IMG/VR virus record: IMGVR_UViG_2778261451_000003
Reading direction: 5' to 3' (one strand)
From: a virus
Taxonomy: Duplodnaviria; Heunggongvirae; Uroviricota; Caudoviricetes
DNA: 4,536 nucleotides
Part shown: positions 1 to 4,536 of the stretch, in pieces
Layout of the letters: every line of letters begins with the position of its first letter
How positions within the stretch are numbered: the first letter of the stretch is position 1
Position numbers and translations under genes: made by a program
The notes under the pieces: model-generated
What the model was told of the DNA's origin: nothing
What the model saw: only the letters and a program-made list of their open reading frames with translations
Databases searched by the model: none

Positions 1-181
1 CAGCGAGTAGGTATATGGGATAATCGCGGATTCAGGTGCTGGTACTGAATTCACCGGGAGGCACCCGGCACCATGCACTTCAATAGATTCTCTCCACATT
101 ATGGATATTCTTTCAGAATATCCCACGCAGACTTTGTGTAAATGTTAACAAATGTGCGTTTTATTTGATCTGATTCGCTGT

Positions 182-240: not shown

Positions 241-669
241 ATGGGTTTTCGTAGCGCATCAATTCTTACGTTGATTATTAGTGGGATTATTATCGGGTGC
301 ACTGATGCTGTATCGACAAATTATCATGACCGTACATCATATTACTCCGATAAAGCAATAGAGACACAGTATGTGAGTTCATCTGAACGTACTTCTGATG
401 TTAGTGAGGATATCCGTCTGTATGCCCATCAAATCAAGAGCGCCATCGAAAAACAGTTCGGGGATGCGAGTAAGTATTCAGGAAAAGAGTGTACACTGAG
501 AATGCATATGGCCCCGAATGGCCTTCTACTGGAGGTTAAAAGAGAAAGTGGAGACCTCGATTTATATCGTGAAGCGATGAATGCGATAAAGAATGCTGAT
601 ATACCTGCCCCCCCTTCGCCGGAAGTATATAAAGTATTTCAAAATGGGGTGCTGGATTTTAAACCCTGA
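241..669 (+). CDS. Outer-membrane lipoprotein with a TolA C-terminal domain III-like domain (142 aa)
   Basis: Six-frame ORF with GAGGA ribosome-binding site. N-terminus MGFRSASILTLIISGIIIGC has a positive n-region, hydrophobic core and lipobox IIGC; Cys at 298-300 is followed by Thr, not Asp, which under the +2 sorting rule predicts outer-membrane sorting. The C-terminus YAHQIKSAIEKQFGDASKYSGKECTLRMHMAPNGLLLEVK...IPAPPSPEVYKVFQNGVLDFKP aligns by eye with the recalled E. coli TolA C-terminus (YAGQIKSAIESKFYDASSYAGKTCTLRIKLAPDGMLLDIK...IPKPPSQAVYEVFKNAPLDFKP), including the terminal LDFKP. Confidence 0.8.
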   Translation: MGFRSASILTLIISGIIIGCTDAVSTNYHDRTSYYSDKAIETQYVSSSERTSDVSEDIRLYAHQIKSAIEKQFGDASKYSGKECTLRMHMAPNGLLLEVKRESGDLDLYREAMNAIKNADIPAPPSPEVYKVFQNGVLDFKP

Positions 670-819: not shown

Positions 820-1215
820 GTGGGATTAAAGAAAATCGTTATGTTGACTTTTTGGGTCGGTTTTGTTGCGGGATGCACACCTTTACACCCTTCAGATTGC
901 CACAAAACTACTGCTACAGGTAGTTGCAGTTCAGGACGCTGGGATGATCAGGATGAATGGGGGGCGCAAGCGCGGGGAATCAGAGCTGCAATTAATGCCA
1001 AACTTGATGAGCCGCATAACTGGAAAGGGAAAAAATGCAGGTTGCATATGGAATTCTCTCAGGATGGCACGGCGTTAAAAATATCTACCAGTAACGGTGA
1101 TAAAGCCTATTGCGAAGCGATAAAGTCCGCAGCTCATAAAGCCAAATTTCCGGCCTTCAACAATCCGGAAGTCTACAGAGATTTTCAGAAATCTGGCTTT
1201 GACATGCGAGGTTAG
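820..1215 (+). CDS. Second, divergent TolA domain III-like outer-membrane lipoprotein, paralog of 241-669 (131 aa, GTG start)
   Basis: GAGGAG ribosome-binding site at 807-812, 7 nt before GTG 820. N-terminus MGLKKIVMLTFWVGFVAGC has lipobox VAGC (Cys at 874-876, +2 Thr). C-terminus KKCRLHMEFSQDGTALKISTSNGDKAYCEAIKSAAHKAKFPAFNNPEVYRDFQ parallels the KECTLRMHMAPNG...PEVYKVFQ block of ORF 241-669 and the TolA domain III CTLRIKL...ALCQAAL...VYEVF pattern. Confidence 0.75.
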   Translation: MGLKKIVMLTFWVGFVAGCTPLHPSDCHKTTATGSCSSGRWDDQDEWGAQARGIRAAINAKLDEPHNWKGKKCRLHMEFSQDGTALKISTSNGDKAYCEAIKSAAHKAKFPAFNNPEVYRDFQKSGFDMRG

Positions 1216-1686: not shown

Positions 1687-2037
1687 ATGACTCAAAAATA
1701 TGAACTGATTGTGAAAGGGATCCGCAATTTTGAGAATAAAGTTACGGTAACTTTAGCGTTACGGGACAAAAAACGCTTTGACGGTGAAATTTTTGACCTG
1801 GACATCTCGCTGGACCGTGTTGAAGGTGCCGCGCTGGAGGTTTATGAGGCAGCAGCCAGAAGGAGCATCAGACAGGTCTTCCTGGATGTTGCTGCCGGGT
1901 TATGTGAAGGGGATGAGCAGTCGCCGGAAAAGCGCCCCGTAATTTTAGATGCGCAGAATGTGTGGATAACCTACAAAGGGAAGCTACCAGGAAGAATTAC
2001 TGGTTCTCTGAAGACTCCTCCAGCATCACAACCTTAA
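1687..2037 (+). CDS. DUF1327 / YdfR-like protein of unknown function, inserted between holin and endolysin (116 aa)
   Basis: ATG at 1687 lies 4 nt after the holin stop TAA (1680-1682), with ribosome-binding site GGGGAGAG at 1672-1679. No transmembrane segment. The N-terminal two-thirds (MTQKYELIVKGIRNFENKVTVTLALRDKKRFDGEIFDLD...EAAARRSIRQVF) resemble, from memory, the YdfR family that occupies the same holin-endolysin slot in the E. coli Qin prophage. The C-terminal ~40 aa could not be assessed. Confidence 0.65.
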   Translation: MTQKYELIVKGIRNFENKVTVTLALRDKKRFDGEIFDLDISLDRVEGAALEVYEAAARRSIRQVFLDVAAGLCEGDEQSPEKRPVILDAQNVWITYKGKLPGRITGSLKTPPASQP

Positions 2038-2634: not shown

Positions 2635-3098
2635 GCAGAGTCGCCGCGATTATTTATGCTCTGGTTATCTGCATCATCGTCTGCCTGTCGTGGGCGGTCA
2701 ATCATTACCGTGATAACTCCATCGCCTACAAAGAACAGCGTGATAAAAAAGTCAGTGAGCTGAAGCAGGCGACCGCCACCATTACTGACATGCAGCAACG
2801 CCAGCGTGCTGCTGATGTACTCGATGCTAAATACACGAAGGAGTTGGCTGATGCGAAAGCTGAAAATGATGCTCTTCGGCGCAAGCTTGATAATGGTGGT
2901 CGGGTGCTCGTCAAAGGAAAATGCTCTGTGCCATCCTCAGCCGAAACCTCCAGCGCCTCCGGCATGGGCAATGATGCCACCGTCGAACTCTCTCCAGTTG
3001 CTGGACGAAACGTTCTCGGTATCCGGGACGGAATCATCAGAGACCAGACAGCACTGAGAACGCTTCAGGAATATATCAGGACGCAATGCCTTCGATGA
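2631..3098 (+). CDS. Rz: Rz i-spanin (inner-membrane spanin subunit), lambda-like, 155 aa, GTG start overlapping the endolysin stop
   Basis: From GTG 2631 (GTGA overlap with endolysin stop 2632-2634) the protein begins [39 protein letters not shown]..., close to recalled lambda Rz [39 protein letters not shown].... It has an N-terminal transmembrane segment and a coiled-coil periplasmic domain. The six-frame track's TTG 2616 start is an upstream extension. Confidence 0.9.
2851..3057 (+). CDS. Rz1: Rz1 o-spanin (outer-membrane lipoprotein spanin subunit) embedded in the +1 frame of Rz, 68 aa
   Basis: ATG 2851 preceded by AAGGAG (2838-2843). Translation [44 protein letters not shown]... has lipobox VVGC and a Pro-rich mature region, matching recalled lambda Rz1 (MLKLKMMLCVMMLPLVVVGCTSK...KPPPPPAWIMQPPP). 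Lies entirely inside Rz, the classic embedded architecture. Confidence 0.8.
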
Positions 3099-3272
3099 TA
3101 GCGATAATTTTACTCATCATCCTTCACATTTGGCTCTGTAGACAGGGTGGTGATCACTTCTGGAGTGAATCCAGATTAAACATCTCATTGCTGATGCTTG
3201 AAGTTGAGCATCTGGCGCGCGGTAAGGGGCTGCGTTGAAATAAGAGCCAGTCATTAAAAATACCTGGGTTTA

Positions 3273-3298
3273 GCCTCGCATTCGCGGGGCTTTTTATT
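3273..3298 (+). terminator. Intrinsic terminator for the plus-strand lysis operon: stem GCCTCGC / GCGGGGC (one G-U wobble), loop ATTC, then TTTTTATT
   Basis: 7-bp GC-rich stem at 3273-3279 / 3284-3290 followed by a T-run at 3291-3298; about 175 nt after the Rz stop. Confidence 0.55.
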
Positions 3299-3303
3299 GC
3301 CAT

Positions 3304-3333
3304 TACAAAAGCCACTCCCTACAGAGTGGCTTT
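3304..3333 (-). terminator. Hairpin GCCACTC / GAGTGGC (3311-3317 / 3324-3330, extendable by AAA/TTT), followed on the minus strand by TTTTGTAA; candidate terminator for the convergent minus-strand unit
   Basis: Perfect 7-10 bp stem with 6-nt loop. On the minus strand the 3' arm is followed by a 4-U run; on the plus strand by TTT, so it may act in both directions. Sits 45 nt after the stop of the 54-aa minus-strand ORF. Confidence 0.4.
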
Positions 3334-3379
3334 GATAATGGCTTATACCCTACACGGGATAACTTAACTGATATCCCTT

Positions 3380-3544
3380 TTAACGGATAAAGGTATTCAA
3401 GCCTGACACATCATGCGCTGTATCGTCGCCGTATTCCCGTATTAACAGAGACCGTAGCCTGACGGGGAACTCCTTCTGCGCGAGTGTGCGGGAATAATCA
3501 AAAACGATGCACACCGGGGTTACCGGGTACACATATTTCATCAT
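3380..3544 (-). CDS. Possible small ORF (54 aa, MMKYVYPVTPVCIVFDYSRTLAQKEFPVRLRSLLIREYGDDTAHDVSGLNTFIR), hypothetical
   Basis: Hand-translated from the minus strand; below the size cutoff of the supplied ORF track. No convincing ribosome-binding site. GC-richer than the adjacent gene. Sits between the YbcV-like gene and the minus-strand terminator hairpin. Could be a gene remnant. Confidence 0.2.
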   Translation of the reverse strand: MMKYVYPVTPVCIVFDYSRTLAQKEFPVRLRSLLIREYGDDTAHDVSGLNTFIR

Positions 3545-3589
3545 GCCAGCGAGTCCGGTTCTGGCGCGGAAGAAACCGGACGTTATGAT

Positions 3590-4000
3590 TTAGTGCGGAA
3601 ATATTTGTGTAGTGTTCTGAATGTTCTCAGTAAATAGTAATGAATTATCAAAGGTATAGTAATATCTTTTTTGTTCGTGGATATTTGTAACCCACCGAAA
3701 AACTCCTGCTTTAGCAAGGTTTCTTCTGTATTCCTGAAATGTGATCTCTCTGGATTTCAGCTTATTAGAGGTCGTTTCTATAAGATGCCTATCCTTTGAA
3801 AATTTGACAGACACAATGTTTTTTAGGCCCTTTAATAACACTGTATTATCATTTTTTAATACAATATGAACATTCTCTGTGGCTAAATAGTAAATGTAAT
3901 GTGAGACATTGTGACGTTTTAGCTCAGAATAAAACCAGTGATAGTTTAAATCGTTTCGAACTTTATCAAATATTTGTTTAAAAATGACTACCTGATCCAT
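3590..4000 (-). CDS. DUF1398 / YbcV-YdfO-like prophage protein (136 aa from the second ATG)
   Basis: Six-frame ORF 3590-4015. The second in-frame ATG (3998-4000) is preceded by GAAGG at appropriate spacing, whereas the first ATG (4013-4015) has no ribosome-binding site, so 136 aa is preferred. Markedly AT-rich coding sequence. Resembles from memory the YbcV/YdfO family of lambdoid prophage accessory genes in E. coli K-12 (DLP12, Qin); the family assignment was not verified. Confidence 0.65.
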
Positions 4001-4057
4001 AGATAAACCTTCCATGTGATATGAGGGGGCGTAGTCTGCACGATTATCTAAATTGCT

Positions 4058-4291
4058 TCAATCTGGTCTGACCTGCTTTCTGAGCAATTCAGTAATGTCA
4101 CTCTTTTCTTTGTTTGCTTCAGGCGAAACTCTTTTTTCTGAGCACAGTCTCCGGCGGCAGGCTTCAATGACCCAGGCTGAGAAATTCCCGGACCCTTTTT
4201 GATCAAGAGCGATGTTAATTTGTTCAATCATTTGGTTAGGAAAGCGGATGTTGCGGGTTGTTGTTCTGCGGGTTCTGTTCTTCGTTGACAT
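4058..4291 (-). CDS. Small ribbon-helix-helix (Arc/MetJ-like) DNA-binding protein, possibly YlcI/YnfO-like (77 aa)
   Basis: N-terminal basic tail (KNRTRRTTTRN) followed by IRFPNQMIEQINIALDQKGSGNFSAWVIEACRRRL, i.e. beta-strand then two helices as in Arc and CopG-type repressors. First gene of the minus-strand unit, immediately inside cos. Weak ribosome-binding site. Confidence 0.55.
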   Translation of the reverse strand: MSTKNRTRRTTTRNIRFPNQMIEQINIALDQKGSGNFSAWVIEACRRRLCSEKRVSPEANKEKSDITELLRKQVRPD

Positions 4292-4439
4292 GAGGTTGCC
4301 CTGTATTCAGTGTCGCTGATTTGTATTGTCTGAAGTTGTTTTTACGTTAAGTTGATGCAGATCAATTAATACGATACCTGCGTCATAATTGATTATTTGA
4401 CGTGGTTTGATGGCCTCCACGCACGTTGCGATATGTAGA

Positions 4440-4536
4440 TGATAATCATTATCACTTTACGGGTCCTTTCCGGCGATCCGACAGGTTACGGGGCGGCGAC
4501 CTCGCGGGTTTTCGCTATTTATGAAAATTTTCCGGT
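4440..4536 (+). other. cos: Lambda-type cos site: cosN with 12-nt cohesive end GGGCGGCGACCT at 4491-4502, cosQ-side sequence upstream, start of cosB-side sequence downstream (truncated by window end)
   Basis: 4441-4490 (GATAATCATTATCACTTTACGGGTCCTTTCCGGCGATCCGACAGGTTACG) matches the recalled right end of phage lambda with about one mismatch. 4491-4536 (GGGCGGCGACCTCGCGGGTTTTCGCTATTTATGAAAATTTTCCGGT) matches the recalled first 46 nt of the lambda left end. Confidence 0.85.

What the first reader, a model, noticed from the sequence alone, without database searches (positions are those of the whole stretch)
3380..4291. AT-rich convergent minus-strand unit (RHH protein, DUF1398 protein, small ORF) adjacent to cos, where lambda carries bor
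Immediately inside cos, three minus-strand ORFs run opposite to the late operon: a 77-aa ribbon-helix-helix protein with a basic N-tail, a 136-aa DUF1398/YbcV-like protein in conspicuously AT-rich sequence, and a possible 54-aa ORF. No Bor-like lipoprotein is present on either strand between Rz and this unit. The arrangement of a small DNA-binding protein followed by an uncharacterised protein, expressed against the late operon, fits a lysogen-expressed accessory or defence/toxin-antitoxin-like cassette, but the function is unknown.
Basis: partly seen in the sequence, partly recalled or inferred. Interest (0 to 1): 0.5.

Follow-up and report, generated by a model that had tools for sequence, protein, structure and literature searches.

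The report
Lambda-type ynfO–ydfO accessory genes beside cos
The region holds two already-annotated lambdoid prophage genes of unknown function: a small probable DNA-binding protein (YnfO/YlcI) and a DUF1398 protein (YdfO). Phage lambda, E. coli K-12 and about half of complete E. coli genomes also carry them, they are independent genes rather than a toxin–antitoxin or defence pair, and the third small ORF is probably not a gene.

Summary
The two larger minus-strand ORFs are real. ORF 4058-4291 is a YlcI/YnfO (DUF3950) protein. ORF 3590-4000 is a DUF1398 protein 98% identical to E. coli K-12 YdfO (PDB 2HH8). It lies in AT-rich DNA about 200 bp from cosN, and no bor is present.

The comparison with lambda is inaccurate. 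Lambda carries bor and also both of these genes (lambdap78 and an ORF at 48109-48303c). K-12 prophage Qin has the same ynfO–ydfO adjacency. 2676 of 5426 complete E. coli genomes hold at least 80% of the unit.

The 54-aa ORF is not conserved as a reading frame. It lies on a conserved non-coding segment that in lambda carries the predicted bor promoter.

The two genes are not an obligate pair. 155 phage records carry DUF3950 but only 43 carry DUF1398. 36 of 102 viral loci have DUF1398 without DUF3950. The DUF3950 C-terminal tail is hypervariable, and no defence or toxin family matches.

Best reading: two independent, non-essential accessory genes transcribed against the late operon and ended by a strong terminator (3299-3342). 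One is a probable Arc-like DNA-binding protein under strong purifying selection. The other is a soluble protein whose conserved upstream leader begins at a PdhR-box-like palindrome. Neither has a known biochemical function. Already known; low interest.

The parts
4491..4502 (.). cosN 12-nt cohesive end (GGGCGGCGACCT). Window 4490|4491 corresponds to the lambda right end | left end junction.
   Evidence: the match ends at lambda 48502 and a second place lies in the record; annotated cos site of phage DE3 has the identical sequence
4292..4490 (-). Conserved cos-proximal intergenic region upstream of the DUF3950 gene. It must hold that gene's promoter, but no consensus sigma-70 promoter was found. 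It contains an 8-bp inverted repeat, ATCAATTA/TAATTGAT, with a 17-nt gap. A 37-aa ORF (4307-4420) is annotated in some phages, without support.
   Evidence: no promoter hit; near-invariant across 67 alleles; inverted repeats; annotation
4058..4291 (-). YlcI/YnfO-family (DUF3950) protein, 77 aa. It has a basic N-terminal arm and a probable Arc-like ribbon-helix-helix core (residues about 12-50). The C-terminal tail is variable.
4065..4073 (.). Palindrome GGTCAGACC, at the place where PdhR genomic SELEX reported a site in K-12 Qin. It marks the 5' edge of the sequence block that travels with the DUF1398 gene, and it is conserved upstream of lambdap78.
4043..4048 (-). Candidate -10 hexamer GATAAT for a DUF1398-specific promoter. 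It is retained in lambda, and the -35 is poor. This is an inference.
   Evidence: read from the alignment; not found by the consensus scan
3590..4000 (-). DUF1398 protein, 136 aa. It could be 141 aa from the ATG at 4015, but GGAAGG before the ATG at 4000 fits the shorter form used by RefSeq. It is 98% identical to K-12 YdfO.
3552..3580 (-). Conserved stem-loop just after the DUF1398 stop codon. The stems are conserved and the loop is variable. It has no U-tract and its function is unknown.
   Evidence: -14.4 kcal/mol, z -1.55, not significant on its own
3414..3530 (.). Conserved non-coding core, homologous to lambda from about 46868 to 47000. In lambda-like HK629 this region carries the predicted bor promoter. 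Here the -35/-10 positions are degenerate (CGGTCT / TACGGC) and bor is absent.
3380..3544 (-). 54-aa ORF. It is probably not a gene, because the frame is not conserved among relatives and no family matches.
3299..3342 (-). Strong hairpin followed by UUUUGU on the minus strand: the intrinsic terminator that ends the leftward unit. The same hairpin also folds on the plus strand.
   Evidence: -30.1 kcal/mol, z -8.0, 0 of 200 shuffles fold as well
3272..3300 (+). Plus-strand terminator-like hairpin with a T-run after Rz, facing the unit.

Best explanation
The region is the ordinary right-end accessory segment of a lambdoid phage, in the same arrangement as E. coli K-12 prophage Qin (ynfO-ydfO next to the Nu1-type packaging gene).

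It holds two separate, non-essential genes read leftwards from the cos side, against the late operon. An intrinsic terminator at 3299-3342 ends their transcription.

Gene 1 (4291->4058) encodes a small YlcI/YnfO protein. Its conserved N-terminal 50 residues most likely form an Arc/Mnt-like ribbon-helix-helix dimer that binds DNA and acts as a transcription regulator. This role is inferred. Its target is unknown and is not specifically the DUF1398 gene.

Gene 2 (4000->3590) encodes a soluble DUF1398/YdfO protein with a fold seen only in this family. It carries its own conserved upstream leader, which begins at a PdhR-box-like palindrome and may hold a promoter (candidate -10 GATAAT). It is probably expressed from the prophage under host control, like other lysogen-expressed accessory genes. 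Expression of the K-12 orthologues is shown. Its biochemical activity is unknown.

The 54-aa ORF is a chance frame over a conserved non-coding junction that in lambda carries the bor promoter. Here bor is missing.

The direct adjacency of the two genes is one of several recombination-generated arrangements left of cos.
For: Identity:
- Pfam and NCBIfam hits are above their cut-offs.
- The DUF1398 protein is 137/140 identical to YdfO, PDB 2HH8.
- RefSeq annotates the same pair in K-12 Qin and in strain STEC346.
- Lambda-like phages carry both genes.
- 2676 of 5426 complete E. coli genomes hold at least 80% of 3590-4291.

Real genes:
- DUF3950 first 50 codons, window versus an HNH-type phage: differences by codon position are 5/2/21, with 18 synonymous and 5 non-synonymous codons.
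- DUF1398 variable sites by codon position are 46/27/72.

Independence:
- 155 phage records carry DUF3950 and 43 carry DUF1398.
- DUF3950 occurs alone next to HNH or Nu1 in BP-4795 and other phages.
- Of 102 scored viral loci, 65 have the direct pair, 1 has the lambda type, and 36 have DUF1398 with no DUF3950 within 1.5 kb upstream.
- Distant DUF1398 genes are solitary.

Transcription unit:
- The terminator hairpin folds at -30.1 kcal/mol, z -8.
- The 57-nt spacer between the genes has no structure.
- The block from GGTCAGACC to the start codon is conserved in lambda, although there it is not next to DUF3950.
- A PdhR SELEX site maps at ynfO/ydfO and at ybcV/ybcW, and ybcV falls 10-fold in a pdhR mutant.
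- ydfO is stress-inducible.

Dispensability:
- Knock-down of lambdap78 has no effect on plating.
- Lambda x DLP12 ybcV::Kan recombinants are viable.

Ribbon-helix-helix:
- The profile alignment to Arc covers the beta-strand and helix A (E 0.043).
- There is a weak match to the HicB-like PHROG (E 0.0069).
- AlphaFold2 gives an extended segment plus two helices, pLDDT 71-84.

Recombination:
- cos cutting stimulates exchange to its left.
- Lambda loses lambdap79 by recombination with Qin, which gives this adjacency.
Against: - No promoter was found by the consensus scan. No transcript data exist for this phage.
- The only phenotype in the literature for YdfO (oxidative stress resistance) is a misattribution of YfdO. 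No function is known for either protein.
- In this window the genes are 57 nt apart with no terminator between them, so co-transcription, and hence some functional coupling in this arrangement, cannot be excluded.
- The high nucleotide conservation of the whole 400 bp next to cos means that part of the DUF3950 conservation among lambda-type phages reflects recombination rather than selection.
Confidence: 0.6

Rival explanations
1. The two genes form a type II toxin-antitoxin or abortive-infection/defence cassette. The ribbon-helix-helix protein would be the autoregulating antitoxin and DUF1398 the toxin or effector.
For: - The order is small DNA-binding-like protein then a larger protein, on the same strand, 42-57 nt apart with no terminator between.
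- The weak structural neighbours of the small protein are mostly ribbon-helix-helix antitoxins.
- There is a weak HicB-like PHROG match.
- 65 of 102 viral loci show the direct pair.
Against: - Each gene is common without the other.
- Lambda and DLP12 have an opposite-strand gene between them.
- The C-terminal tail of the small protein is hypervariable while DUF1398 is conserved.
- No toxin or defence family matches.
- YdfO was produced in quantity for an NMR structure (the inference is that it is not strongly toxic).
- The ybcV knockout and ybcV::Kan strains are viable in DLP12, where ylcI is not co-transcribed with ybcV.
Confidence: 0.07
2. The DUF3950 protein is tied to the packaging end rather than to gene regulation. 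It would be a small DNA-binding accessory factor acting at or near cos, for example in termination of packaging or protection of the end. DUF1398 would be an unrelated passenger.
For: - The only constant neighbour of DUF3950 genes is the start of the packaging module. This holds in two unrelated packaging types: Nu1/A, and HNH-TerS-TerL.
- The gene always lies at the lysis-packaging junction.
Against: - The gene is antisense to the late transcript that supplies the packaging proteins.
- In HNH-type phages the HNH gene separates it from cos.
- No shared DNA motif was found between the two packaging types.
- Some lambdoid prophages with the same Nu1 lack it (L136-L158).
- From my own recall: minimal cos fragments suffice for lambda packaging.
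Confidence: 0.1
3. The DUF1398 protein is a virion or envelope component, as the labels 'head protein' (PHROG 413, RefSeq) and 'putative envelope protein' (lambdap78) say.
For: PHROG 413 is labelled 'head protein', matched at E 1.8e-86. RefSeq and GenBank product names say the same.
Against: - The gene is read against the late operon.
- It is absent from most lambdoid phages, including those with the same head genes (43 versus 155 records).
- Knock-down does not affect plating, and replacement by a Kan cassette gives viable phage.
- It has no signal peptide, lipobox or hydrophobic segment.
- Homologues sit alone outside phage structural modules.
Confidence: 0.02
4. Both ORFs are decaying passengers kept only by linkage to cos, with no function of their own.
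For: - The whole 400 bp left of cos is nearly invariant, coding and non-coding alike.
- Recombination is stimulated there.
- Both genes are dispensable.
Against: - DUF3950 shows strong purifying selection between phages whose flanks are unrelated (18 synonymous versus 5 non-synonymous codons).
- DUF1398 keeps intact frames down to 21-25% identity in the same slot.
- The K-12 copies are regulated.
Confidence: 0.05

Closest known systems
E. coli K-12 cryptic prophage Qin: ynfO (b4533) - ydfO (b1549) next to nohA
   Same: - Same two genes, same order and strand, about the same spacing, next to the Nu1-type packaging gene.
- The window protein is 98% identical to YdfO. The DUF3950 protein is 96-97% identical to its closest E. 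coli YlcI/YnfO homologues.
- The spacer containing GGTCAGACC is almost identical.
   Different: - Downstream of ydfO, Qin has gnsB/ynfN/cspI.
- The window instead has a non-coding remnant of the bor-upstream region plus a terminator, then Rz.
Phage lambda right end: bor, lambdap78, lambdap79, YlcI/YnfO ORF (48109-48303c), cos
   Same: - DUF1398 is 80% identical and the DUF3950 N-terminal 49 residues are 98% identical.
- Both lie on the same strand and in the same position relative to cos.
- The same conserved segments lie upstream and downstream of DUF1398.
   Different: - Lambda has lambdap79 (ybcW-like, plus strand) inserted between the two genes. The insertion cuts into the C-terminal tail of DUF3950, which is 64 aa there.
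- Lambda has bor with its predicted promoter downstream.
- The window lacks both.
DLP12 prophage: ylcI - ybcW - ybcV - borD
   Same: Same families and the lambda-type order. The PdhR site lies between ybcV and ybcW.
   Different: Same differences as for lambda.
P22 Arc / Mnt repressors (ribbon-helix-helix)
   Same: - Small size and a basic N-terminal arm.
- The motif N-x-R-aromatic-P is followed by helix, G-x-S turn, helix. YnfO NIRFP aligns with Arc NLRWP. The Arc sequence and the roles of its residues come from my own recall.
   Different: - The similarity is not statistically significant (E 0.043 for one comparison).
- No operator is identified.
- No antirepressor gene is present in this window.
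- The gene lies at the lysis-packaging junction, not in an immI-like region.
Ribbon-helix-helix antitoxins of type II toxin-antitoxin systems (ParD, RelB, mycobacterial MazE)
   Same: Weak structural resemblance of the predicted core. The gene precedes a second gene on the same strand.
   Different: No obligate partner, a hypervariable tail, and no recognisable toxin.

Membership tests
DUF1398 / YdfO-like (Pfam PF07166) | Full-length match to the family profile above the curated cut-off | tested here: met
   156.8 bits against a cut-off of 22; profile positions 1-119 of 119
DUF1398 / YdfO-like (Pfam PF07166) | Close relationship to the member with a solved structure (YdfO, PDB 2HH8) | tested here: met
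YlcI/YnfO family (Pfam DUF3950 PF13132; NCBIfam NF041551) | Match to both family models above their cut-offs | tested here: met
   74.6 bits against 25; 35.7 bits against 30
Ribbon-helix-helix (Arc/MetJ-like) DNA-binding proteins | N-terminal beta-strand followed by two helices joined by a G-x-S/T turn | tested here: inconclusive
   AlphaFold2 monomer: extended 1-18, helices 19-32 and 34-52, pLDDT 71-84. The strand would form only in a dimer, which could not be modelled.
Ribbon-helix-helix (Arc/MetJ-like) DNA-binding proteins | Significant sequence or structure similarity to a known member | tested here: inconclusive
   - hhalign versus Arc: E 0.043, probability 1%
- PHROG HicB-like: E 0.0069
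- Foldseek best E 6, with ParD2 at E 8
- PDB profile search: nothing
Ribbon-helix-helix (Arc/MetJ-like) DNA-binding proteins | Dimerisation and sequence-specific DNA binding | not testable with these tools
   Needs EMSA, ChIP or a multimer model.
Type II toxin-antitoxin system | The two genes co-occur as an obligate adjacent pair | tested here: not met
   - 155 phage records carry DUF3950 against 43 with DUF1398.
- 36 of 102 loci have DUF1398 without DUF3950.
- DUF3950 occurs alone in BP-4795 and other phages.
Type II toxin-antitoxin system | The antitoxin has a conserved toxin-binding C-terminal region | tested here: not met
   The tail after residue 50 differs completely in sequence and length among alleles.
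Type II toxin-antitoxin system | The second protein belongs to a toxin family, or is toxic when expressed alone | tested here: inconclusive
   No toxin family in Pfam, NCBIfam or PADLOC. Toxicity itself is not testable here.
Known anti-phage defence systems (PADLOC) | Match to a protein model of a known or candidate system | tested here: not met
   Only a chance-level Csx23 hit, E 0.013.
Lysogen-expressed accessory genes of lambdoid phages ('morons', such as bor) | Own terminator, orientation against the flanking operon, deviant base composition | tested here: met
   Terminator at -30.1 kcal/mol, z -8. Minus strand between late genes. GC 0.29-0.33.
Lysogen-expressed accessory genes of lambdoid phages ('morons', such as bor) | Own promoter that is active in the prophage | tested here: inconclusive
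   No consensus promoter. Candidate -10 GATAAT and a PdhR-box-like palindrome are conserved with the gene. The K-12 orthologues are transcribed in cryptic prophages. There are no data for this phage.
Virion structural protein ('head protein', PHROG 413 label) | Encoded in and expressed with the late structural operon; needed for particle formation | tested here: not met
   Antisense to the late operon. Dispensable. Absent from most relatives.

The most novel reading that the evidence does not exclude
Two related readings are not excluded.

1. The YlcI/YnfO protein, conserved under strong purifying selection at the lysis-packaging junction of lambdoid phages with two unrelated packaging modules, could be an unrecognised Arc/Mnt-like prophage regulator. 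Its target could matter for lysogeny: antirepressor-type genes that often share this interval, or transcription entering the packaging genes.

2. The DUF1398 protein could be a host-regulated lysogenic-conversion or exclusion factor with a new fold and activity.

Both would then be overlooked functional genes of phage lambda itself.
Probability: 0.15. Interest if true: 0.55.

Novelty: already known. Interest (0 to 1): 0.2.

Why it matters
This changes little as a discovery. The genes, their families, their position and one structure are already in the public record, and the window adds only another mosaic arrangement.

It has some value as a reminder that phage lambda and about half of complete E. 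coli genomes still carry two conserved genes next to cos whose functions nobody has determined. The current labels ('head protein', 'envelope protein') and one cited phenotype (oxidative stress resistance) are unsupported.

The interval is also a recombination hot zone where accessory genes are swapped. One of them, lambdap79, is absent here and is sensed by a defence system.

Tried and rejected
- **Parafibromin similarity.** The single-sequence search gave E 0.006. It vanished with a family profile, so it is chance.
- **233-aa DUF3950-DUF1398 'fusion' protein P0001**. The two ORFs are in frame with one TGA between them. The encoding DNA still has the stop under table 11, so this is a gene-calling artefact, not read-through evidence.
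- **'YdfO overexpression increases oxidative stress resistance'** (PMC4077768). The cited paper names YfdK/YfdO/YfdS of CPS-53 and never mentions ydfO. The claim is rejected.
- **Scan of species-representative genomes for DUF1398**. Outside Escherichia and Shigella it returned almost only lambda control-DNA contamination and gave no distant contexts.
- **Promoter scan.** It found no sigma-70 consensus in 3000-4536.
- **Search for an operator motif shared by lambda-type and HNH-type DUF3950 upstream regions.** Only chance 8-10-mers turned up.
- **Rfam.** No RNA family lies in 3300-4536.
- **Codon test on the 54-aa ORF.** It failed on frame integrity.
- **Internal duplication of DUF1398** (helix plus beta-hairpin, twice). 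Support is weak only: hhalign E 0.0031.
Full report
**What is there**

The window is the late-region end of a lambdoid phage. In order it holds:
- two TolA-domain lipoproteins;
- a P21-type holin;
- a DUF1327 protein;
- a lysozyme;
- Rz and Rz1;
- the minus-strand ORFs of the finding;
- the lambda cohesive end GGGCGGCGACCT at 4491-4502.

The ORF at 4058-4291(-) matches DUF3950 and the NCBIfam YlcI/YnfO model above their cut-offs. The ORF at 3590-4015(-) matches DUF1398 over the whole profile. RefSeq uses the ATG at 4000, which gives 136 aa; GGAAGG lies just upstream of it.

GC drops to 0.285-0.335 across the DUF1398 gene. No Bor homologue or lipobox ORF lies between Rz and the unit.

**What these genes are**

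The DUF1398 protein is 137/140 identical to E. coli K-12 YdfO, whose NMR structure is PDB 2HH8. The small protein is 96-97% identical to its closest E. coli YlcI/YnfO homologues.

K-12 prophage Qin has exactly this arrangement: nohA, then ynfO and ydfO on the other strand. RefSeq annotates the same pair in strain STEC346.

Lambda itself carries both genes. Lambdap78 (47042-47575c) is DUF1398, 80% identical. An ORF at 48109-48303c, named 'YlcI/YnfO family protein' in RefSeq records of lambda-like phages, is 98% identical over the first 49 residues. In lambda, bor lies further left, and lambdap79 (ybcW-like, plus strand) sits between the two genes.

'Where lambda carries bor' is therefore not the right comparison. 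The window has the lambda genes minus bor and minus lambdap79. At least 80% of 3590-4291 is present in 2676 of 5426 complete E. coli genomes.

**The third ORF**

The segment 3414-3600 is homologous to the lambda DNA between lambdap78 and bor. In the lambda-like phage HK629, a predicted promoter for bor is annotated there. At the matching positions the window reads CGGTCT and TACGGC instead of TGGACA and TACAAT, and bor is gone.

I compared 16 sequence variants of this segment, taken from prophages and phages:
- About 110 bp form a conserved core.
- The part that would encode the N-terminal third of the 54-aa ORF varies by indels that are not multiples of three.
- Lambda, DLP12-type and other copies have compensated frame shifts inside the core.
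- Only near-identical copies keep an ATG-initiated frame.
- No protein family matches.

I conclude that the 54-aa ORF is a chance frame on conserved non-coding DNA. The same core follows DUF1398 alleles that are only 21-25% identical, and it precedes at least four different downstream modules. What it does is unexplained.

**Transcription unit**

On the minus strand a hairpin at 3299-3342 folds at -30.1 kcal/mol (z -8.0) and is followed by UUUUGU. This is a convincing intrinsic terminator for leftward transcripts. A plus-strand terminator-like site at 3272-3300 faces it.

The spacer between the two genes has no structure, so read-through from the first gene into the second is possible. The consensus scan found no sigma-70 promoter.

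The block from the palindrome GGTCAGACC (4065-4073) to the DUF1398 start codon is conserved upstream of lambdap78, where DUF3950 is 700 bp away. It includes a GATAAT that could serve as a -10.

Genomic SELEX placed PdhR sites at this position in Qin and between ybcV and ybcW in DLP12. ybcV mRNA fell 10-fold in a pdhR mutant (PMC7660256). ydfO rose 117-fold by qPCR after ionic-liquid stress (PMC4077768). The DUF1398 gene therefore carries its own conserved upstream region, which may hold a promoter, and its K-12 copies are expressed from prophages that cannot grow lytically.

**Are the two genes a system?**

No, for these reasons:
- In 50,697 phage records, 155 carry the DUF3950 N-domain and only 43 carry DUF1398. 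The Stx-converting phages have DUF3950 alone.
- In BP-4795 the order is Rz, DUF3950 (antisense), HNH, TerS, TerL.
- Other alleles are followed by an opposite-strand PerC gene, an 82-aa gene or a 46-aa gene.
- Of 102 viral loci with enough upstream sequence, 65 have the direct pair, 1 has the lambda type, and 36 have DUF1398 with no DUF3950 within 1.5 kb.
- More distant DUF1398 genes stand alone. One lies next to an integrase. Another lies next to what I recognise from memory as Salmonella sopE2. K-12 ycgX is a further solitary copy (PMC3509220).
- The DUF3950 tail after residue 50 differs completely among alleles. In lambda the lambdap79 insertion falls inside it, and the old tail end ('…VRPD') is left as a remnant upstream of lambdap78.
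- PADLOC, Pfam and NCBIfam give no toxin or defence match.

**The small protein**

It is a real gene under strong purifying selection. Against an HNH-type phage whose flanks are unrelated, the first 50 codons differ at 5/2/21 sites by codon position, with 18 synonymous and 5 non-synonymous codons.

The evidence for a ribbon-helix-helix fold is convergent but weak:
- A profile alignment places TRNIRFPNQMIEQINIALDQKG on Arc QFNLRWPREVLDLVRKVAEENG (E 0.043).
- There is a HicB-like PHROG match at E 0.0069.
- AlphaFold2 gives an extended N-terminus and two helices at pLDDT 71-84.
- A PDB profile search found nothing.

From my own recall of the Arc-operator structure, the aligned N and R are DNA-contacting residues. 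That is a lead, not a test.

The only constant neighbour of this gene family is the start of the packaging module, of either type. The target of the protein is unknown.

**The DUF1398 protein**

The family is small. Only 198 clusters out of 1.84 billion representatives match, and many of those are fragments. It is essentially enterobacterial. Hits in other taxa are lambda control-DNA contamination.

The only solved relative is 2HH8. My model was too poor to search with. There is weak evidence for an internal repeat.

The labels 'head protein' and 'envelope protein' are unsupported:
- The gene is antisense to the late operon.
- The protein has no export signal.
- The gene is missing from most relatives.
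- Its knock-down does not reduce plating (PMC10695390).
- Lambda recombinants that carry ybcV::Kan are viable (PMC3945230).

The one phenotype quoted for YdfO is a confusion with YfdO.

**Why this arrangement**

Cutting at cos stimulates recombination on its left side (PMC3945230). A 2026 preprint reports that lambda escapes the Vulcan defence by losing lambdap79 through recombination with Qin. That event produces the adjacency seen in this window. The roughly 400 bp next to cos are nearly invariant across 67 alleles, coding and non-coding alike.

**Verdict**

Everything here is already annotated, down to a solved structure, and the same genes are in lambda and K-12.

Most likely mechanism:
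- An Arc-like DNA-binding regulator, about 0.5 likely for that step.
- An independently regulated soluble accessory protein of unknown activity.

Interest is low. The residual interest is that two conserved lambda genes still lack a function.

Noticed in passing
window 241-669 (+) and 820-1215 (+): Two tandem lipoproteins (lipoboxes IIGC and VAGC) whose mature parts are copies of the TolA C-terminal domain (Pfam TolA E 4.4e-21 and 1.3e-14). They sit between the Q/pR' region and the holin, the slot where Stx phages carry stx. They could act as decoys for TolA-dependent colicins or filamentous-phage entry.
   Followed up: no
window 1-130 (+): Rfam STnc100 small RNA, 51.2 bits (gathering score 47), cut off at its 5' end by the window edge.
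   Followed up: no
window 1687-2037 (+): A DUF1327/YdfR-family gene is inserted between the holin and the endolysin, as in Qin (ydfR) and BP-4795.
   Followed up: no
window 3086-3238 (+): A 50-aa hydrophobic ORF overlaps the end of Rz. RefSeq annotates the equivalent ORF as a hypothetical protein in strain STEC346.
   Followed up: no
window 3414-3530 and hairpin 3552-3580: A conserved non-coding core and stem-loop follow DUF1398 alleles as different as 21-25% identity, and they precede at least four different downstream modules. The function is unknown. It may be a recombination junction or an RNA element.
   Followed up: partly
window 4058-4060 (TGA) between the two ORFs: The DUF3950 and DUF1398 ORFs are in the same frame, separated by one TGA and 14 sense codons. 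A database 'fusion' protein of 233 aa with W at that codon is a gene-calling artefact, because its DNA does not translate with table 11.
   Followed up: yes
loci L013-L042: Assemblies of unrelated taxa contain roughly 3.5-kb or 48.5-kb pieces of lambda DNA. These are most likely sequencing-control contamination. Examples are Kitasatospora, a Brevibacillus 'plasmid', Arcanobacterium hippocoleae 'plasmid unnamed1' (3566 bp), Cohnella, Pedobacter and Flavobacterium.
   Followed up: partly
literature (PMC4077768 versus PMC3105296): The statement that YdfO overexpression raises oxidative-stress resistance cites a paper that reports YfdK, YfdO and YfdS of prophage CPS-53 and never mentions ydfO.
   Followed up: yes
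L160-L165 (for example L164 3896-4375): A 159-aa protein only 21-25% identical to the window's DUF1398 occupies the same slot between cos and the conserved core in other prophages, without a DUF3950 gene.
   Followed up: partly
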